Shown: piece by piece, positions 58,727 to 63,792 of the stretch
Layout: each line of letters begins with the position of its first letter
How positions within the stretch are numbered: the first letter of the stretch is position 1
Assembly: GCA_902617045.1 (NCBI GenBank)
Contig: CACMVA010000004.1
Location: 1,976-65,975 of the forward strand
DNA length: 64,000 nucleotides
Direction of reading: 5' to 3'
Source: an uncultured SAR86 cluster bacterium
GTDB taxonomy: Bacteria; Pseudomonadota; Gammaproteobacteria; Magnimaribacterales; D2472
Made by a program: the position numbers and the translations under genes
The notes under the pieces: generated by a model
What the model was told of the DNA's origin: nothing
What the model saw: the letters and a program-made list of their open reading frames with translations, nothing else
The model's database searches: none

Positions 58727-61009
58727 CTAGAAGGTTAGATTAAATTTTAATCCGTAATTTCTTCCAGGAAGAGGAACTTCATTTTTCACAAAAGAAGAGT
58801 GATTCCTGGCAACTTCATCAAGAAGGTTATTAGCGAAAAGCGAAACTTTTAGTTCACCTTCGCCCATTCCTTTGAATGTTTTGGTTAGTCTTGTGTTAAG
58901 CATTTGATAAGAATCAGTTGCTGTTTCACCTTCACCAATATCATTTTGTTTTTCAACATCTTTAAGCATTAGTTTAAAGAGCAAATCATCTTGAGTATAA
59001 ACTAAAGAATAAATGTTTCTTGCTGGATTAATTCTTGGTACGTAATGTCCATCTGCGAATTCAGCATTCACAACATCTCTTCCAAAAGATAAAGCAAGCT
59101 CGCCAGAGCCAAGATCAAAACTTCTTCCAAATTCAATCTCGTATCCATCAAACTCAGCATCTTCTTGCATGTAATTAGCATGAATTAAATTACCATGACC
59201 ATGATCATCATGCTCGTCTTCATGATGCTCGTCCTCACCTTCATGATGCTCATCTTCGTCTTCATGATGCTCGTCTTCACCCATGTGATCATCTTCTTCA
59301 TCTATTAGAGCGATGTAATTATCCACATCAGTGATATAAAAACTTGCGAGAGCATAGAAATCACCATTATCAAAATTAAAAGTGATATCAAAGTTATTTG
59401 AAGTTTCACTGTTAAGATTTGGATCACCAACTTCAAATCTTCCTGTTGCCATATGAGGTCCATTCATGAAGAGCTCAATTGAAGATGGAAGTCTTTCAAC
59501 ACTTGCATACCCAAGACTAATACCAAGATTATCACTTAGGTCTCTGCCAAGAGTTATAGCAAAACTACTTGTTGTATCATCTATGTTGTAATAATCAACG
59601 TCTCCATGTTCATCACCATGTTCATCACCATGATCATCTCCATGATCATCTTCATGTTCTTCCTCAGAAACACTTCCACTTCTTTCAATTTGATCCAATC
59701 TAAAACCAAAATCAAGATCAAATGTTCCTAGGTCTTTACTTAAGTAATAACCAATTGTGAATTCTTCACTATTTGCAGGATTCATGAACGCTTCTTCGCC
59801 AACAATAGAGTTATCTTCATCGACAAAATTTACAACAACCTTTTGAGTTGAAGAGTCATTTGAAATATCAAAAGTAGCACCATACTCAACAGCCTCATTC
59901 ATGAAAACGGTTGGAGCATGTTCTTCATGTTCTTCTTCCTCTTCATGATCTTCTTCTTCGTGATGCTCTTCTTCAGCATGAGCCTCTGTTAAAGAGTAAT
60001 CTGAATCTCGGTATGTAAAGTCAACTTTATTAACAAGACTTCCATTGACATTGTATGAACCTCTGATAGAAGAAGTCTCAGAATCAGTAGTGGAAAAAAT
60101 TCTTTCCTCACCATGCTCTTCTTCATCACCATATTCATCTCCATGCTCATCGCCATGCTCATCTCCATGCTCATCGCCATGAAAGGGAATACCATAAACA
60201 CTTTCAAGATTATCAATTCCAAAGCCAATATAGCCCCAGTCTGTTAATTTGGATACACCAAACTTTGTTGCCTCTACAGCAAAATCAGAGTTATTTATGT
60301 ATCCTAAATCCTCTTCAGAATGTTCATCATCATGATGTTCATCTTCATCGTGATCTTCATCATCATGATGCTCCTCCTCTGAGTGAATTACAGCACCACT
60401 AGGAACATCATAGTTTCCAAAATCAGTATTTTTATAGCCAAAATTAACATTAAAACCACCAACATTGCCTTTTAAATTCACAAATTCTGAATTTCCGTCA
60501 TTTACAGATTGAGATTCATATCCAACTGAAACCTCAGGAATTTCAAAATTCTTAGTTGAAATTAAATCATCAACAACATTGATAATTCCTCCTATGGTCC
60601 CATTTGCATATAGAAGTGATGAGGGTCCTTTGACAATTTCTACTTGAGAAATATCATTCAAGTCCACGTCATTCAAGTGATCAACACCAAGACCAGACAC
60701 ATCTCTGTTGACGACACCATTTTTAAGTATTTTTACTCTTGGGCCTGACATACCTCTAATAATTGGTTGGCCAACAGCTGAACCATAGTCTGCAATTGAA
60801 AGACCAAGATACTCATCAATCGCATCACCCAAACTTGTAGTTGCTCCATCTGAAAATTCAGAACCATCAATAACGTATAGCGGATTGTTAATTTCACTAG
60901 TATCGATAAAAGCTGAAGTAACAACAATTTCTTCAACCTCATCCTGTGAAATTATATTTATCGAATGAAAAGCAATTAATACAATAACTGCGTTAAAAAA
61001 TTTTTTCAT
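58727..61009 (-). CDS. TonB-dependent receptor, ZnuD-like, with five His/Asp/Glu-rich loops (probable Zn/transition-metal uptake)
   Basis: EEIVVTS, GQPIIRGMSGPRV, DVSGLGVDH, KGPSSLLY, YGIPFH, ELFMNGPHMAT, ARNHSSFVK..VPLPGRN, terminal Phe; strong SD AAGGAGG. Confidence 0.88.
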   Translation of the reverse strand: MKKFFNAVIVLIAFHSINIISQDEVEEIVVTSAFIDTSEINNPLYVIDGSEFSDGATTSLGDAIDEYLGLSIADYGSAVGQPIIRGMSGPRVKILKNGVVNRDVSGLGVDHLNDVDLNDISQVEIVKGPSSLLYANGTIGGIINVVDDLISTKNFEIPEVSVGYESQSVNDGNSEFVNLKGNVGGFNVNFGYKNTDFGNYDVPSGAVIHSEEEHHDDEDHDEDEHHDDEHSEEDLGYINNSDFAVEATKFGVSKLTDWGYIGFGIDNLESVYGIPFHGDEHGDEHGDEHGDEYGDEEEHGEERIFSTTDSETSSIRGSYNVNGSLVNKVDFTYRDSDYSLTEAHAEEEHHEEEDHEEEEEHEEHAPTVFMNEAVEYGATFDISNDSSTQKVVVNFVDEDNSIVGEEAFMNPANSEEFTIGYYLSKDLGTFDLDFGFRLDQIERSGSVSEEEHEDDHGDDHGDEHGDEHGDVDYYNIDDTTSSFAITLGRDLSDNLGISLGYASVERLPSSIELFMNGPHMATGRFEVGDPNLNSETSNNFDITFNFDNGDFYALASFYITDVDNYIALIDEEDDHMGEDEHHEDEDEHHEGEDEHHEDEHDDHGHGNLIHANYMQEDAEFDGYEIEFGRSFDLGSGELALSFGRDVVNAEFADGHYVPRINPARNIYSLVYTQDDLLFKLMLKDVEKQNDIGEGETATDSYQMLNTRLTKTFKGMGEGELKVSLFANNLLDEVARNHSSFVKNEVPLPGRNYGLKFNLTF
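59218..59280. repeat. Three 21-bp tandem units (encode HHE(D/G)EDE-type repeats)
   Basis: cttcatgatgctcgtcctcac / cttcatgatgctcatcttcgt / cttcatgatgctcgtcttcac. Confidence 0.85.
59601..59660. repeat. Five imperfect 12-bp tandem units (HGDE/HGDD)
   Basis: tctccatgttca tcaccatgttca tcaccatgatca tctccatgatca tcttcatgttct. Confidence 0.85.
60123..60182. repeat. Five 12-bp tandem units (four HGDE, one YGDE)
   Basis: tcatcaccatat tcatctccatgc tcatcgccatgc tcatctccatgc tcatcgccatga. Confidence 0.88.
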
Positions 61010-61026
61010 GTTTCCTCCTTTATGAA

Positions 61027-61059
61027 AAATTAGTTAAAAATTTATTAATTAACTAATTT
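61027..61059 (-). promoter_or_regulatory. AU-rich hairpin overlapping the leader ORF stop, upstream of the receptor SD
   Basis: Minus strand AAATTAGTTAA-N11-TTAACTAATTT, then TTCATAAAGGAGGAAACATG. Confidence 0.55.
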
Positions 61060-61316
61060 AAAGGTGGAGCTCTTGATAGATTTGATTTTTGTTTTTGACT
61101 TACAAATCTATTGATTAGATTTGATTCAGGGGATTCTTTTAAAAAATTGTTTTTATTTTTTGTTGAAGCAATTTTAATTTCAACATTTTCTTCACAAGCC
61201 TGGCATTCAGCCAAATGCTCTTCTTCAAAGCTGAAGTGATCATGATGATCTGCAAAGCTGTGCAACGACAAACTTGCTATAAATAGAAATGAATATAGTA
61301 GATATTTTTTATTCAT
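61053..61316 (-). CDS. DUF2946/CruR-like leader protein: signal peptide, His cluster, CxxC and C-terminal RAPP arrest motif
   Basis: MNKKYLLYSFLFIASLSLHSFA-DHHDH...EEEHLAECQAC...NLSRAPPLN*; directly upstream of a TonB-dependent receptor; alternative start at 61322. Confidence 0.78.
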   Translation of the reverse strand: MNKKYLLYSFLFIASLSLHSFADHHDHFSFEEEHLAECQACEENVEIKIASTKNKNNFLKESPESNLINRFVSQKQKSNLSRAPPLN

Positions 61317-62376
61317 GATCATGAGTCAGGCATACTAAACCATTAATCTTTCCATTTTTCAAGTCATTTAAAGTTTTATTTGCCTCTGAGGCATTTCTTC
61401 TTTCAACCTCTACATGCTCAATCTTGTTTTCCCTTACAAGCTCCATTAATTCACTCATTTCTTGCAGACTTCCAACATAGACTCCTCGAATGGTTCTTGC
61501 AGTTAAAGTTGTCATTGGAAGCTGTAAGTTTGTTTCTCCTCCAATCAAACCAACAATTACATATGTGCCACCTCTTTTCATACCGAACATTCCAGATGCA
61601 AGCTCAAACGTCTCAGCTGCACCTACAAAATCAATGACACTGGTGGCACCACCATTAGTAAGTTCTGCAATTTTTTCGTACAACTTCTCATCTCTTGAAT
61701 TAATTACTTCAGATGCTCCAGCTTGTTTTGCTAGTTCAAGTTTTTCATCGTCAATGTCAACAACTATAGGATTAATAGAATAGGCTGCTTGAATTATTTT
61801 TAATGAAAGTAATCCAAGCCCTCCAGCGCTTATGATAACAACAGAATTTTGACCTTTAACTAAATCCGCTTTTTTAAGCGCACTGTACGCAGTCAAACCT
61901 CTGCAAGCGTAACTTCCAGCAACTTCGTCTGGAGTATCTCCGGCATCAAATAAATATTTAGAATCTGGCACAAGAACATATTCTGCATAACCACCGTCTA
62001 CATTAATACCTAAATTTTTTGTTGTTAAAGGTGAACAATAATGCTCTCTATCATTAGCGCACTCATCACAATTACCACATCCTATCCAAGGATATGCAAC
62101 ATATTTTTTTCCAATTTCAATATCCGAAACATCTTCCCCTAACTCAACCACTTCACCATATATTTCATGACCCATAGCAAGCGCATCTGTCATTAGAGGT
62201 ACTGGAAGTTTTGCTTCTTCCCCCAAACTAAAAAAACCTTCATGTATATGGACGTCTGAATGACAAACGCCACATGCTACAGTTTTAATTAAAATTTCTT
62301 TACCAGTCGGTTTGGGTTTTTCTATTTCTCTTTTTTCTAGAGGTTTGCCGTTTTCAACAACTTGATATGCTTTCAT
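61309..62376 (-). CDS. Zinc-dependent alcohol dehydrogenase (MDR family)
   Basis: CGVCHSD, GHE, structural Zn site CGNCDEC...HYC, AGGLG. Confidence 0.93.
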   Translation of the reverse strand: MKAYQVVENGKPLEKREIEKPKPTGKEILIKTVACGVCHSDVHIHEGFFSLGEEAKLPVPLMTDALAMGHEIYGEVVELGEDVSDIEIGKKYVAYPWIGCGNCDECANDREHYCSPLTTKNLGINVDGGYAEYVLVPDSKYLFDAGDTPDEVAGSYACRGLTAYSALKKADLVKGQNSVVIISAGGLGLLSLKIIQAAYSINPIVVDIDDEKLELAKQAGASEVINSRDEKLYEKIAELTNGGATSVIDFVGAAETFELASGMFGMKRGGTYVIVGLIGGETNLQLPMTTLTARTIRGVYVGSLQEMSELMELVRENKIEHVEVERRNASEANKTLNDLKNGKINGLVCLTHDHE

Positions 62377-62421
62377 ATATATTTTTGTGTTTTATTTATT
62401 ATAGATTATATTATTCATTAT

Positions 62422-63792
62422 ATGACCAAGCTAATAAAATACTCTTTTTTAATTTTTGCGTGCTTTATTGAAGCAAAGCCATTTGAATCAACTTACGAAC
62501 CTTTACCTTCAGAGAATATTCTTATTAGAAATGCAAATATTTATGATGGAGAAGGAAATGAATTTAATGAAACAGATCTTTTAATTCAGGATAGAAAAAT
62601 TGTTGCTATTGGTAAAGATTTACCAGTTGGTAGTGAATTTTTGATCATTGATGCATCCAATAAATGGGTAACTCCTGGAATTATAGATATTCATTCTCAT
62701 ATGGGCGTTTACCCAGCTCCTGGGGTAAGCACAAGTTCTGATGGAAATGAAGCAACGAGTCCTGTTACTGCAGATGTATGGGCTGAACATTCAATTTGGG
62801 TTCAAGATCCTCAGTATGCTCTTGCTTTAAAAGGAGGGATAACTGCTTTTCATATTTTGCCAGGATCGGCAAATTTGATTGGTGGTAGGGGAGTAACTGT
62901 AAAAAATTTACAAAGAAACACCATCAATTCTATGAAATTTCCTGATGCACCACATTCATTAAAAATGGCCTGTGGAGAAAATCCAAAAAGAGTTTATGGA
63001 AATAGACAACAAGCTCCATCCACAAGAATGGGTAACGCAGCAGGTTATAGAAAATCTTGGATTCAAGCTGAAGCTTATTTAAGTCGGTTAGATGAATACG
63101 AAGCTAAATCTGAGGAAGCTAAAGAAATAGGATATGCACCTCAGAGAGATCTTGAGATGGATACTCTTGCGGGAGTACTGCGAGGTGAAATATTAGTTCA
63201 CAATCATTGTTATAGAGCTGAGGAAATGGCAACAATGATAAATATTGCAAATGAATTTAATTATAAAATTACAGCTTTCCATCATGGTGTTGAAGCATAC
63301 AAAATTGCAGATTTATTGGCAGAAAATAATATATGTGGAGCTTTATGGGCAGATTGGTGGGGGTTTAAACACGAGGCATATGATATGGTTCAGGCTAATA
63401 TAGCCATTGTTGATCAAGCTCTTGGTGGCAAAGGGTGTGCAATTGTTCACTCTGATGATGCCATAGGGATTCAGCATCTCAATCAAGAAGCATCAAAAGC
63501 TTTAGCTGCTGGTTTGAGAGCTGGTTTTGATATATCAAAAGCAAGAGCTATGAATTGGATTACTTCTAACCCAGCAAAAGCTGCGGGTATTTATGATCAA
63601 ACTGGATCATTAAAAGTTGGCAAAAACGCTGATGTCGTCATTTGGTCAAAAAATCCTTTTAGTGTATATGCTCTTGTTGAGAGAGTTTTTATTGATGGCG
63701 CAACAGCTTATGACAGAAAAAATAATTTCCAACCTGCAAGTGATTTTGATGTTGGAATAATTAGTCCAGAAAAAAATAGGATAGAAGAATGA
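62422..63792 (+). CDS. Secreted amidohydrolase-family protein
   Basis: Signal peptide from ATG 62422; PGIIDIHSHMG, LKMACGENPK, HCYR, HHG, HSD, NPA, GSLKVGKNADVV. Confidence 0.9.
   Translation: MTKLIKYSFLIFACFIEAKPFESTYEPLPSENILIRNANIYDGEGNEFNETDLLIQDRKIVAIGKDLPVGSEFLIIDASNKWVTPGIIDIHSHMGVYPAPGVSTSSDGNEATSPVTADVWAEHSIWVQDPQYALALKGGITAFHILPGSANLIGGRGVTVKNLQRNTINSMKFPDAPHSLKMACGENPKRVYGNRQQAPSTRMGNAAGYRKSWIQAEAYLSRLDEYEAKSEEAKEIGYAPQRDLEMDTLAGVLRGEILVHNHCYRAEEMATMINIANEFNYKITAFHHGVEAYKIADLLAENNICGALWADWWGFKHEAYDMVQANIAIVDQALGGKGCAIVHSDDAIGIQHLNQEASKALAAGLRAGFDISKARAMNWITSNPAKAAGIYDQTGSLKVGKNADVVIWSKNPFSVYALVERVFIDGATAYDRKNNFQPASDFDVGIISPEKNRIEE

What the first reader, a model, noticed from the sequence alone, without database searches (positions are those of the whole stretch)
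61009..61316. Candidate metal-sensing ribosome-arrest leader (signal peptide, His/CxxC, RAPP) controlling a hyper-His-rich uptake receptor
Seen: an 87-aa ORF with a Sec-type signal (residues 1-22), DHHDH...H, C38-x-x-C41, a 40-residue low-complexity linker and R82-A-P-P two codons before the stop, 43 bp upstream of a ZnuD-like receptor. Known: RAPP is a ribosome-stalling motif (ApdA/ApdP class), and DUF2946 leaders with CxxC and RAPP (Bordetella CruR before bfrG; related Rhodobacter CutF) regulate downstream copper genes post-transcriptionally. Inference: the 40-residue spacer is about one exit-tunnel length, so the metal site would just emerge when the ribosome stalls. The characterised cases sense Cu. 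Here the target looks like a Zn/Co/Ni receptor and I see no Zur box, so this could be transcription-factor-free trace-metal sensing in an abundant streamlined marine clade.
Basis: partly seen in the sequence, partly recalled or inferred. Interest (0 to 1): 0.85.

Follow-up and report, generated by a model that had tools for sequence, protein, structure and literature searches.

The report
Metal-sensing stalling leader before zinc-type receptor
A tiny conserved gene that probably makes the ribosome pause, and senses a trace metal while it does so, sits just before an outer-membrane metal-uptake receptor in a group of small-genome marine bacteria; it is a new, well-conserved example of a regulator type already known for copper.

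Summary
On the minus strand, 61053-61316 encodes an 87-aa peptide: signal-like N-terminus, DHHDH...H, C38xxC41, 40-residue spacer, R82APP, two codons, stop. The TonB receptor ATG lies 43 nt downstream.

The peptide is conserved. A family profile finds it in 158/201 genomes of the order (51/57 high-quality), about one copy each. In 77 loci examined, [R/Q]APP lies 1-4 codons before the stop (RAPP 75, QAPP 2). The Cys-to-RAPP spacing is 40 or 41 in 77/77 although the spacer sequence drifts. CxxC is present in 70/77.

The receptor's Shine-Dalgarno pairs with the leader's last codons in 73/77 minimum-energy folds. The hairpin shows compensatory changes.

The receptor is closest to the zinc transporter ZnuD, far from copper OprC. 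Only Fur, no Zur, was found.

Best reading: a CruR/CutF-type metal-responsive arrest leader. A stalled ribosome unmasks the receptor's ribosome-binding site, and metal (zinc favoured, unproven) releases the stall.

It fails the Pfam DUF2946 model. Signal-peptide RAPP leaders before TonB receptors are already described as widespread, so this is a new member of a known kind, with variant features. Stalling and metal response are untested.

The parts
61053..61316 (-). Leader ORF (87 aa plus TAG stop at 61053-61055)
   Evidence: Orthologues in 31/36 other genomes of the genus at E<=1e-20. Family profile in 158/201 genomes of the order.
61251..61316 (-). Residues 1-22: signal-peptide-like N-terminus (MNKK, hydrophobic core, SFA|D)
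   Evidence: By inspection. A hydrophobic N-terminus is present in all aligned family members. No signal-peptide predictor was run.
61215..61250 (-). His cluster D23-H34 (DHHDH...EEEH), putative metal ligands
   Evidence: 1-10 His precede the Cys motif in the 68 loci that could be read (of 77). H25 is nearly invariant in the 76-sequence alignment A3.
61194..61205 (-). C38-Q-A-C41 (CxxC)
   Evidence: C38 and C41 are invariant in A3, though A3 members were chosen for having CxxC. Among 77 loci of the order, CxxC occurs in 70 and the first Cys alone in 7.
61074..61193 (-). Spacer, residues 42-81: variable sequence, fixed length
   Evidence: Spacing is 40 (42 loci) or 41 (35 loci) in 77/77 loci. 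The sequence is poorly conserved.
61062..61073 (-). R82-A-P-P85 arrest motif. [quoted passage not shown]
   Evidence: RAPP in 75/77 loci, QAPP in 2/77, always 1-4 codons before the stop. The stall register is taken by analogy with ApdA/ApdP and CruR (PMC10951233 and PMC12992588, passages). It was not tested here.
61013..61068 (-). mRNA hairpin. The 5' arm (61049-61068) covers the last base of the A83 codon, the P84 and P85 codons, the two tail codons, the stop and 4 nt beyond. The 3' arms are 61028-61037 (inner) and 61013-61022 (outer, containing the Shine-Dalgarno).
   Evidence: MFE -15 kcal/mol, z -2.3. Same architecture in 30/30 genus loci. Covariation was counted on the 60 of 76 loci that the covariance model retrieved. 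The SD pairs with the leader 3' end in 73/77 loci.
61013..61021 (-). Shine-Dalgarno AAAGGAGGA of the receptor (GGAGG at 61014-61018)
   Evidence: It is the only GGAGG among the 37 ORFs of >=200 aa in the window; 24 of the 37 have no SD-like triplet.
58727..61009 (-). Regulated gene: 760-aa TonB-dependent receptor, ZnuD-like, with five His/Asp/Glu-rich segments. In the model these lie in loops L2, L3, L4, L6 and L8, the extracellular side by the canonical receptor topology.
   Evidence: Pfam Plug plus barrel. NCBIfam ZnuD 186 bits versus TonB-copper 37.7. PDB 4rdr E 4e-30. Foldseek top hit ZnuD, E 3.5e-31. Loops are read from the model.
61309..62376 (-). Upstream Zn-type alcohol dehydrogenase. 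Its stop overlaps the leader start (ATGAATAA), so the two are probably co-transcribed and translationally coupled in this genus.
   Evidence: A same-strand ORF overlaps, abuts or ends within 60 nt of the leader start in 56/77 loci. An RNA contig spans 61066-61866.

Best explanation
The 87-aa ORF is a regulatory leader of the CruR/CutF type: a nascent-chain metal sensor joined to a RAPP ribosome-arrest motif.

Steps shown by sequence and comparison:
(1) A small signal-bearing peptide carries a His cluster and CxxC a fixed 40-41 residues before RAPP, and RAPP lies 1-4 codons before the stop.
(2) It always sits 36-54 nt upstream of one orthologous ZnuD-like TonB receptor.
(3) The receptor's unusually strong Shine-Dalgarno is base-paired with the last codons of the leader. 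In this genus the pairing partner is the RAPP codons themselves.

Steps inferred:
(5) Its footprint (to about +15 nt) covers the 5' arm of the hairpin. The Shine-Dalgarno stays free and the receptor is translated.
(6) At the stall, C41 is 43 residues and the His cluster 57-61 residues from the peptidyl-transferase centre. That places them just past the exit tunnel, or at or inside the Sec channel if the signal peptide is engaged.
(7) Metal binding there folds or pulls the chain and releases the arrest. The ribosome terminates two codons later and leaves, the hairpin re-forms, and the receptor is shut off.

The result is metal scarcity = receptor ON and metal sufficiency = OFF, without a transcription factor. 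Zinc is the favoured metal (ZnuD-like receptor, His/Cys/Glu ligand set, no Zur). This choice is the weakest link.
For: Anatomy.

Conservation. 31/36 other genomes of the genus have the ORF at E<=1e-20. The family profile finds it in 158/201 genomes of the order, 51/57 high-quality genomes and 21/22 genera, mostly as one copy. In 77 loci: RAPP 75 and QAPP 2; tail 1-4 codons; spacing 40 or 41 in 77/77; CxxC 70; synonymous codon variation at A, P and P. Against 1.84 billion representatives the profile finds 112 proteins, all 54-118 aa. Of these, 80 hold CxxC...RAPP with spacing 40-44.

RNA. MFE hairpin z -2.3, seen in 30/30 genus loci. Covariation on the 60 loci (58 distinct rows) that the model retrieved from 76: 84.7% of cells paired versus 70.7% in shuffles; 14/19 pairs with compensatory changes; score 0.295 versus 0.105 (0/500 shuffles reach it); slid controls 0.013-0.093. 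The SD pairs with nucleotides inside the footprint of a RAPP-stalled ribosome in 73/77 loci, median z -3.4. Other clades use a different anti-SD (R-A-P codons, or tail codons) but always at the leader's 3' end. The receptor holds the only GGAGG among 37 long ORFs of the window.

Precedent (established knowledge). [quoted passage not shown] CruR: CXXC plus RAPP, spacing conserved, copper relieves the stall, the target is a TonB transporter (PMC9426467, passages). CutF: the stall melts a stem-loop that shields the next gene's ribosome-binding site (10.1101/2025.02.05.636593, abstract, introduction, discussion).

Receptor. ZnuD is the best hit by HMM, sequence and fold. D110, H111, E342, H344 and H519 are invariant in 41/41 orthologues. 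D110/H111 and H519 align with ZnuD ligands Asp-99/His-100 and His-499 (PMC4557270, passage).

No Zur. There is one FUR-family gene per genome in 30/30 high-quality relatives. The two examined are Fur, not Zur.

Expression. The leader region is covered by contigs from marine metatranscriptome runs of 4 studies.
Against: No experiment exists: neither stalling nor a metal response has been shown for any member.

The Pfam DUF2946 model does not recognise the family. Profile-profile comparison with a DUF2946 alignment gives only 25% probability over 14 columns around CxxC.

CCNCC (Pro-Pro codons) and GGAGG are complementary by nature. With the spacer shuffled, the SD is still mostly paired (mean unpaired probability 0.13 versus 0.10 native). 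Masking the stalled-ribosome footprint raises it only to 0.40 on average, at 20 C.

RNAalifold on a plain MAFFT alignment found no structure. The covariation count rests on an alignment fitted to the model, and 16/76 loci were not retrieved by that model. In 4/77 loci the SD is not paired with the leader end in the MFE.

R is Q in 2/77 loci although Arg is critical in characterised RAPP peptides. The second Cys is missing in 7/77 loci.

7/41 orthologous receptors lack His-rich loops.

All characterised relatives sense copper.
Confidence: 0.68

Rival explanations
1. Same arrest-leader mechanism, but the metal sensed and imported is copper, as for CruR-BfrG. The ZnuD-like fold would then reflect ancestry only.
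For: Both characterised relatives (CruR, CutF) respond to copper (PMC9426467; 10.1101/2025.02.05.636593). CxxC is a classic Cu(I) motif. Leaders outside the order that the same profile retrieves grade into true DUF2946 (L062, 24.5 bits, above the 23.7 cut-off).
Against: The receptor scores 37.7 bits on TonB-copper (cut-off 472) against 186 on ZnuD. ZnuD is the top fold hit, E 3.5e-31, against OprC 2.9e-23. The receptor has no Cys. Residues aligning with the ZnuD zinc ligands are invariant. The second Cys of the leader is dispensable in 7/77 loci while the His cluster stays.
Confidence: 0.25
2. CutF-like polarity: metal binding prolongs the stall, so the receptor is induced when its metal or substrate is present (substrate induction) rather than when it is scarce.
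For: In CutF copper induces stalling and opens a stem-loop that masks the ribosome-binding site (10.1101/2025.02.05.636593). The hairpin logic here (stall = ON) is the same. Nothing in the sequence fixes the sign of the metal effect.
Against: For an uptake receptor of a scarce nutrient, repression by sufficiency is the usual logic, and it is what CruR does for its TonB transporter (PMC9426467). This is inference only.
Confidence: 0.12
3. The hairpin acts mainly on transcription. Either the inner A/U stem followed by a U run is an intrinsic terminator, or ribosome release exposes a Rho entry site as in CruR. The stalled ribosome then prevents termination, and the Shine-Dalgarno pairing is secondary.
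For: The inner stem is followed by UUUUU in the genus. CruR works through Rho (PMC9426467). Two RNA contigs from different studies end at 61056 and 61066, at the start of the hairpin. Contig depth in one run is 741 over the leader against 2-82 over the receptor bins. These are weak hints, because contig depth cannot rank genes.
Against: The terminator scan lists nothing here; the stem has no G-C-rich core. The intergenic region is 36-54 nt against 162 nt in CruR. One RNA contig bridges the leader and the receptor start (60961-61310). The SD itself is the pairing partner in 73/77 loci.
Confidence: 0.15
4. The ORF encodes a functional secreted metal-binding peptide (a periplasmic chaperone or partner of the receptor), and RAPP is not a regulatory arrest.
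For: It has a signal-like N-terminus and conserved His/Cys residues. The ORF is called as a protein in many assemblies.
Against: Only the motifs and the spacer length are conserved, not the spacer sequence. RAPP is strongly avoided in proteomes except in arrest peptides (PMC12992588, abstract). The motif always lies 1-4 codons from the stop and inside the anti-SD arm. CruR and CutF peptides are not detectable in cells (PMC9426467 and PMC9973294, passages).
Confidence: 0.07
5. It is a secretion monitor of the ApdA/ApdP/SecM type, reporting Sec capacity rather than metal.
For: Signal peptide plus C-terminal RAPP is the format of those monitors (PMC7897499, abstract from the search listing only).
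Against: The downstream gene is a metal-type receptor, not a Sec or YidC component. The conserved His/Cys cluster at a fixed distance has no role in that model.
Confidence: 0.04

Closest known systems
CruR (Bordetella pertussis bp2923, DUF2946) upstream of the TonB transporter bfrG
   Same: Small exported uORF. CXXC at a conserved distance from a RAPP motif a few residues before the C-terminus. First gene before a TonB-dependent transporter. Expected logic: stall = downstream gene ON, metal relieves the stall (PMC9426467, passages). The arrest at RAPP was shown in vitro (PMC12992588, passage).
   Different: 87 aa versus 145 aa. Spacing 40-41 versus 45 +/- 1-2. An added His cluster. No match to PF11162. 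Intergenic region 43 nt with an SD-sequestering hairpin, versus 162 nt with Rho-dependent termination. A/T-rich versus 71.6% G+C. The target is ZnuD-like and the metal is unknown, versus copper.
CutF (Rhodobacter capsulatus cutFOG) and 'CutF-like proteins'
   Same: Sec signal, Cys/His metal motif and a C-terminal proline arrest. A stem-loop shields the next gene's Shine-Dalgarno and is melted by the stalled ribosome. The survey reports short intergenic regions, TonB-like neighbours and members that are 'not all Cu-specific' (PMC9973294, passages; 10.1101/2025.02.05.636593).
   Different: CutF has CXXXC and PPP, depends on EF-P, is stalled by copper and controls a detoxifying oxidase. Here the motifs are CxxC and RAPP, the target is an uptake receptor, and the anti-SD lies within the leader's last codons. 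In this genus those are the arrest codons themselves.
RAPP-class arrest peptides (ApdA, ApdP; SecM RAGP)
   Same: RAPP near the C-terminus of a small secretory protein. [quoted passage not shown] The downstream gene is controlled through mRNA structure (PMC10951233; PMC12992588).
   Different: Those peptides monitor Sec or YidC and precede localisation genes. This one carries a metal-ligand cluster and precedes a metal receptor.
ZnuD (Neisseria meningitidis zinc TonB receptor, PDB 4rdr)
   Same: Best sequence and fold match. Plug D-H and loop-7 His align with Zn ligands Asp-99/His-100 and His-499. A His/Asp-rich loop 3 sits at the same place (PMC2895646, passage).
   Different: About 20% identity. 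Below the NCBIfam cut-off (186 versus 950 bits). Five His/Asp/Glu-rich loops instead of one. No Cys pair in loop 3. No Zur control.

Membership tests
Pfam DUF2946 (PF11162; CruR/CutF family as curated) | Match to the family HMM at or above the gathering score (23.7 bits) | tested here: not met
   No hit at E<=1 for the window peptide. 0/61 genomes of the order at E<=10, while the Caulobacter control scores over the cut-off. 3/76 family members have weak hits, best E 0.032. hhalign against a 20-sequence DUF2946 alignment gives 25% probability over 14 columns.
Pfam DUF2946 (PF11162; CruR/CutF family as curated) | CXXC and RAPP separated by a conserved 45 +/- 1-2 residues (PMC9426467) | tested here: not met
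   The spacing is conserved, but at 40-41 (77/77 loci). It is 40-44 among the 80 of 112 profile hits that hold both motifs. Three true DUF2946 proteins fetched here have 43, 47 and 47 by my hand count on the output.
CutF-like / RAPP-uORF class (functional class: metal-sensing arrest leaders) | Small (<150 aa) protein with an N-terminal Sec signal | tested here: met
   87 aa. Charged n-region plus hydrophobic core in all aligned members. By inspection only; no predictor was run.
CutF-like / RAPP-uORF class (functional class: metal-sensing arrest leaders) | [quoted passage not shown] | tested here: met
   The first Cys is present in 77/77 loci at the fixed distance. CxxC occurs in 70/77. A His cluster lies upstream of the Cys motif in the 68 loci and in the 7 CxxX leaders.
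CutF-like / RAPP-uORF class (functional class: metal-sensing arrest leaders) | C-terminal proline arrest motif (RAPP) a few residues before the stop | tested here: met
   RAPP in 75/77 and QAPP in 2/77 loci; tail 1-4 residues.
CutF-like / RAPP-uORF class (functional class: metal-sensing arrest leaders) | Located immediately upstream of a metal-homeostasis gene, with mRNA structure masking its ribosome-binding site (CutF type) | tested here: met
   A TonB receptor follows at 36-54 nt in the 68 loci measured of 77. The SD pairs with the leader 3' end in 73/77. Covariation supports the hairpin.
CutF-like / RAPP-uORF class (functional class: metal-sensing arrest leaders) | Ribosome arrest at the motif, modulated by metal | not testable with these tools
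   Needs in vitro translation or toeprinting and reporter assays.
ZnuD (zinc TonB-dependent receptor) | NCBIfam NF038289 at its cut-off (950 bits) | tested here: not met
   186.3 bits. It is the best of 22 families but far below the cut-off.
ZnuD (zinc TonB-dependent receptor) | Buried high-affinity site Asp-99, His-100, Glu-340, His-499 (PMC4557270, passage) | tested here: inconclusive
   D110-H111 and H519 align with chain residues 113-114 and 513 of 4rdr. These equal the published numbers if the chain is offset by +14, which is my inference. All three are invariant in 41/41 orthologues, as are E342 and H344. The Glu-340 region was not aligned.
ZnuD (zinc TonB-dependent receptor) | Closest solved structure and a His/Asp-rich extracellular loop 3 | tested here: met
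   Foldseek rank 1-4 are ZnuD, E 3.5e-31, TM 0.71/0.76, next family 8e-24. The second His-rich segment aligns at the ZnuD loop-3 His/Asp stretch. However, 7/41 orthologues have no His-rich segment.
OprC / TonB-copper receptor (TIGR01778) | HMM at its cut-off (472 bits); Cys/Met/His copper site | tested here: not met
   37.7 bits. The receptor has 0 Cys. OprC ranks below ZnuD by 8 orders of magnitude in E-value. The OprC ligand set is recalled, not read.

The most novel reading that the evidence does not exclude
This order of small-genome marine gammaproteobacteria has Fur but no Zur, and no ZnuA was found in this assembly. It may set its zinc (or other non-copper trace-metal) uptake entirely at the ribosome. 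A co-translationally exported His/Cys mini-sensor, held a fixed 40-41 residues from a RAPP arrest site, would read the metal and release the stall. The last codons of the leader (in this genus the arrest codons themselves) would act as the anti-Shine-Dalgarno that gates a ZnuD-like receptor. That would be the first non-copper member of the CruR/CutF class with a defined readout. It would also be a transcription-factor-free metal homeostat in a group that the profile finds in 158 of 201 genomes.
Probability: 0.35. Interest if true: 0.65.

Novelty: new member of a known kind. Interest (0 to 1): 0.45.

Why it matters
If the reading holds, it gives the first concrete regulatory mechanism for trace-metal uptake in this abundant, uncultured, regulator-poor marine group. 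It would extend the copper-only experimental record of CruR/CutF-type nascent-chain sensors to a ZnuD-like, probably zinc, system.

The system is compact: 87 codons plus 43 nt. It has clear knobs to test, namely the His cluster, CxxC, the 40-41-residue ruler, RAPP and the anti-SD. It is also naturally replicated across many genomes, with informative variants (QAPP, single Cys, different anti-SD registers). That makes it a convenient test bed for how metal binding to a nascent chain releases a RAPP arrest.

It also shows that the Pfam DUF2946 model misses a whole branch of these leaders. DUF2607 (PF10795) matched one outside-order leader of the same format and may hold another branch.

Tried and rejected
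Known-family searches on the leader: Pfam and NCBIfam gave nothing meaningful. The PF11162 search of 61 relatives gave nothing. Rfam over 60800-62500 gave one chance-level hit, E 0.42.

RNAalifold on a MAFFT alignment of 34 intergenic regions predicted no pairs, because indels in the A/U-rich loop misalign the arms. I replaced it with a covariance model built from 12 well-aligned sequences.

I used the genome search with the profile instead.

Consensus scans with sequences recalled from memory: the Zur box gave 6 hits against 9.5 expected, none near the locus. The Fur box gave 0 hits.

The promoter and terminator scan listed no terminator at the hairpin. It listed one promoter-like site inside the leader (61183-61155), no more than shuffles give.

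Background SD-sequestration control within the window: only 4 genes had an SD of >=4 nt, too few to use.

Taxon name: cluster look-up returned only 'Gammaproteobacteria bacterium'.

RNA contig coverage gaps and depths cannot rank genes or prove transcript ends. I use them only as weak hints.

Literature: a search for RAPP + arrest peptide + zinc found 2 papers, of which 1 was listed, and it is unrelated. A search for SAR86 + TonB-dependent + zinc listed 5 papers, none about such a leader, judged from the listing only. I therefore found no print record of this particular family. The supplementary lists of PMC9973294 and PMC12992588 may contain it and could not be read.

Full report
**What is there.** The finding lies on the minus strand. 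Window 61053-61316 is an 87-codon ORF. It encodes a signal-like N-terminus (residues 1-22, by inspection), then DHHDH (23-27) and H34. C38-Q-A-C41 follows, then 40 poorly structured residues, R82-A-P-P85, L86, N87 and a TAG stop. The ATG of a 760-aa TonB-dependent receptor (58727-61009) lies 43 nt downstream. It is preceded by AAAGGAGGA. Upstream, a zinc-type alcohol dehydrogenase (61309-62376) ends inside the leader's start (ATGAATAA), so there is no intergenic space for a promoter here.

**Is it conserved?** A six-frame search with the peptide found full-length orthologues at E<=1e-20 in 31 of 36 other genomes of the genus. Two further 'hits' were noise inside a 481-aa ORF, and three genomes had none. 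In the 30 loci fetched, ECQACEEN and SRAPP are identical while the spacer varies.
- Five loci from the three other families of the order have almost unrelated sequences. They keep the same plan: hydrophobic N-terminus, His cluster, CxxC, 40-41 residues, RAPP, 1-2 residues, stop, then a TonB receptor.
- A profile of 22 leaders, searched against 1.84 billion representative proteins, found 112 proteins, all 54-118 aa. Of these, 80 hold CxxC...RAPP, with spacing 40 (21), 41 (39), 42 (3), 43 (5) or 44 (12). The rest are mostly truncated or chimeric calls.
- A 76-sequence profile finds the leader in 158 of 201 genomes of the order, 51 of 57 high-quality genomes and 21 of 22 genera, mostly as one copy.
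- In 77 loci of the order that I read in full: RAPP 75 and QAPP 2; tail 1-4 codons; Cys-to-RAPP spacing 40 (42 loci) or 41 (35 loci); CxxC 70, with the second Cys replaced in 7.
- All four Ala and Pro codons are used at the motif. The peptide is therefore under selection, not only the RNA.
- A ruler of fixed length with a free sequence is what an arrest-peptide sensor needs. It is not what a folded protein shows.

**The RNA.** The minus-strand RNA from the RAPP codons to the receptor ATG folds into a two-tier hairpin (-15 kcal/mol, z -2.3).
- CUCCACCUUUA (end of the A83 codon, P84, P85, L86) pairs with UAAAGGAGGA, the receptor's Shine-Dalgarno.
- An inner A/U stem includes the stop codon.
- The same architecture is the minimum-energy fold in all 30 genus loci.
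- A covariance model built from 12 sequences retrieved the element in 60 of 76 loci. On that alignment (58 distinct rows), 84.7% of cells pair against 70.7% in shuffles. 14 of 19 pairs show changes on both sides. The covariation score is 0.295 against 0.105, reached by 0 of 500 shuffles. Sliding the partners drops it to 0.013-0.093.
- Folding each of the 77 loci alone, the SD (GGAGG in 56, GGAG in 21) pairs with nucleotides between the Arg codon and stop+3 in 73. All of those partners lie within +15 nt of the first Pro codon, the reach of a ribosome stalled there. Median z is -3.4.
- Other clades use another register: AGAGCUCC (the R-A-P codons) against GGAGUUCU, or the tail codons. The partner is still always the leader's extreme 3' end.
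- This genome hardly uses Shine-Dalgarno sequences. Of 37 ORFs of >=200 aa in the window, only the receptor has GGAGG and 24 have nothing SD-like.

**Caveats on the RNA.**
- Pro-Pro codons are complementary to GGAGG by nature. With the spacer shuffled the SD still pairs (unpaired probability 0.13 against 0.10).
- Masking the footprint frees it only to 0.40 on average.
- RNAalifold on a plain alignment saw nothing.
- The pair counts come from a model-fitted alignment.
- Four loci (L077, L085, L103, L104) do not show the pairing.

**The receptor.**
- Pfam finds Plug plus barrel.
- The best NCBIfam model is ZnuD (186 bits, cut-off 950), against 37.7 for TonB-copper.
- The best PDB sequence is ZnuD 4rdr (E 4e-30; next is ShuA at 1e-7).
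- An AlphaFold model built on 41 orthologues (pLDDT 68, pTM 0.71) matches ZnuD first (E 3.5e-31, TM 0.71/0.76). PhuR, OprC and ShuA follow at about 1e-23.
- The five His/Asp/Glu-rich segments (207-234, 278-300, 347-363, 451-468, 573-606) are the low-confidence stretches between strand pairs. By the canonical topology they are extracellular loops L2, L3, L4, L6 and L8. The second aligns at ZnuD's His/Asp-rich loop 3.
[quoted passage not shown] With a +14 chain offset, which I infer, D110-H111 and H519 align to three of them. These residues, plus E342 and H344, are invariant in 41/41 orthologues.
- The receptor has no Cys.
- The hyper-His loops are variable: 0 to 5 per orthologue, and none in 7 of 41.

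The core receptor is therefore ZnuD-like. The His-rich loops are an embellishment of some lineages, including this one.

**Regulators.** FUR-family genes occur once per genome (30/30 high-quality relatives). None was found in this 87.5%-complete assembly. The two I classified, both from another family of the order, are Fur (165-172 bits, cut-off 146), not Zur (25.9 bits in one, no Zur hit listed for the other). No ZnuA-family protein was found in this assembly. Recalled Zur-box and Fur-box consensus sequences do not occur near the locus. In 56 of 77 loci a same-strand ORF overlaps or ends within 60 nt of the leader start, on a crude start-codon rule. This leaves little room for a dedicated promoter. 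These points fit control after transcription, but they are indirect.

**Expression.** Contigs from marine metatranscriptome runs of four studies cover the leader.
- One contig spans the leader and the dehydrogenase 3' part (61066-61866).
- One spans the receptor start and the leader (60961-61310).
- Two end at 61056 and 61066, where the hairpin begins.
- One run shows much higher contig depth on the leader than on the receptor.

Contigs cannot define transcript ends or levels, so this shows presence in RNA libraries and at most hints at attenuation.

**How it most likely works.** Established knowledge:
[quoted passage not shown] Arg is critical, and EF-P does not rescue it (PMC10951233, passages; PMC12992588, abstract and passages).
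- CruR, with CXXC and RAPP at a conserved spacing, stalls in vitro. It keeps a TonB transporter gene ON until copper relieves the stall (PMC9426467 and PMC12992588, passages).
- CutF's stall melts a stem-loop that hides the next gene's ribosome-binding site (10.1101/2025.02.05.636593).

Combining these with the anatomy gives the following model. The ribosome stalls at P84/P85 and covers the anti-SD arm, so the receptor's SD is free. At that moment C41 is 43 residues and the His cluster 57-61 residues from the catalytic centre. That is just outside the tunnel, or at the Sec channel if the signal peptide is engaged. Metal binding compacts or pulls the chain and the arrest is released. Termination follows two codons later, the hairpin re-forms, and the receptor goes OFF.

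The architecture and the hairpin are shown. The stall, its release by metal, the sign of the effect and the compartment of sensing are inferred. I put 0.68 on the arrest-leader mechanism as a whole. Within it, zinc is ahead of copper (roughly 0.45 against 0.25).

**Comparison with the known families.** It works like CruR in target and expected polarity, and like CutF in readout. It is not a detectable member of Pfam DUF2946.
- There is no hit for the window peptide, none in 61 genomes, and 3/76 weak hits.
- hhalign gives 25% probability over the CxxC only.
- The spacing is 40-41 rather than 45.

The boundary is soft, however. The same profile retrieves leaders in 18 genomes outside the order, among the roughly 397 such genomes sampled from the class. 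I read 16 of the fetched outside-order loci, and 12 showed a CxxC...RAPP ORF. These have spacing 41-45. They sit before TonB receptors in four loci, before porin-like or unassigned outer-membrane-type genes in seven, and before an unrelated ORF in one. I scanned six of these leaders against Pfam. One reaches the DUF2946 cut-off (24.5 against 23.7 bits), three score just below it, one had no hit, and one matches DUF2607 (30.4 against 24). So this is a divergent branch of one broad class.

That class is in print.
- One survey catalogued 5,334 CutF-like proteins in 29 sequence clusters. They carry Cys, His or mixed motifs. TonB-like genes are their second commonest neighbour and most intergenic regions are under 100 nt. 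The authors state that not all are copper-specific (PMC9973294, passages).
- RAPP/RGPP uORFs with signal peptides are reported as over-represented upstream of TonB receptors across Gram-negative bacteria (PMC12992588, passages).
- I could not read those papers' supplements, so I cannot say whether these particular peptides are already listed.
- Searches for RAPP + arrest peptide + zinc, and for SAR86 + TonB-dependent + zinc, found nothing on this system (listings only).

**Verdict.** This is a real, strongly conserved feature. It is a new member (a divergent sub-family, unrecognised by Pfam) of a known kind of regulator, and its variant features are worth testing:
- a ZnuD-like target in genomes without Zur;
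- a 40-41-residue ruler;
- a His cluster in addition to CxxC;
- an anti-Shine-Dalgarno built from the leader's last codons (in this genus the arrest codons).

I rate interest 0.45.

Noticed in passing
window 56058-58625 (-); also L031, L034, L036: A second TonB-dependent receptor (855 aa, weak heme/siderophore-type hits) follows the His-rich receptor after 101 nt. A second receptor-like ORF also follows directly in loci from two other families of the order and in another genome of the genus. The pair may therefore be one conserved unit under the same leader.
   Followed up: partly
whole window (37 ORFs of >=200 aa): Shine-Dalgarno sequences are rare in this genome. 24 of 37 long ORFs have no SD-like triplet within 20 nt of the first ATG, and only the His-rich receptor has GGAGG. 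Starts were taken crudely as the first ATG.
   Followed up: partly
window 61309-61322: The stop codon of the zinc-type alcohol dehydrogenase overlaps the leader's start (ATGAATAA). The same dehydrogenase sits upstream in other genomes of the genus (L036, L037) but not in other families. This suggests translational coupling of the leader to a housekeeping gene in this genus.
   Followed up: partly
L051-L054, L062-L064 (genomes outside the order): CxxC-(43-45)-RAPP leaders with a His cluster precede genes of about 400-450 aa rather than TonB receptors. Of the four downstream proteins scanned, two had only weak, below-cut-off porin-type Pfam hits (Porin_O_P, BBP2), one had no hit and one had only noise. 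One such leader (L052) matches Pfam DUF2607, which may be another unrecognised family of arrest leaders.
   Followed up: partly
proteins P0171, P0190, P0213, P0216, P0217 and others: A sub-group of profile hits of unknown origin has a different N-terminus (MKNLLIIYN...), runs of up to nine His, a C-x-E-C motif and a spacing that appears to be the 44-residue class (spacing was tallied for the set, not per protein), ending SRAPPIS. It is probably another lineage's version of the same device.
   Followed up: no
L091, L094 (one genus of the same family); P0169, P0195: Leaders with QAPP instead of RAPP, otherwise intact (CxxC, 41-residue spacing in the two loci, hairpin with CCUCC:GGAGG). This is either a weakened stall or evidence that Gln can replace the 'critical' Arg in this context.
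   Followed up: partly
window 52893-52927: lpxC (52928-53848) and secA (50184-52892) are 35 nt apart, with no secM-like ORF between them. The classical SecM monitor is therefore missing here, although a RAPP leader is used elsewhere in the genome.
   Followed up: no
window 61089-61219, run X2: In one metatranscriptome the summed contig depth over the leader is 741, against 2-82 over the receptor bins and 58-172 over most of the dehydrogenase (342 in the bin that spans the leader start). This could reflect a stable or attenuated leader RNA, but contig depth is not a valid expression measure.
   Followed up: no
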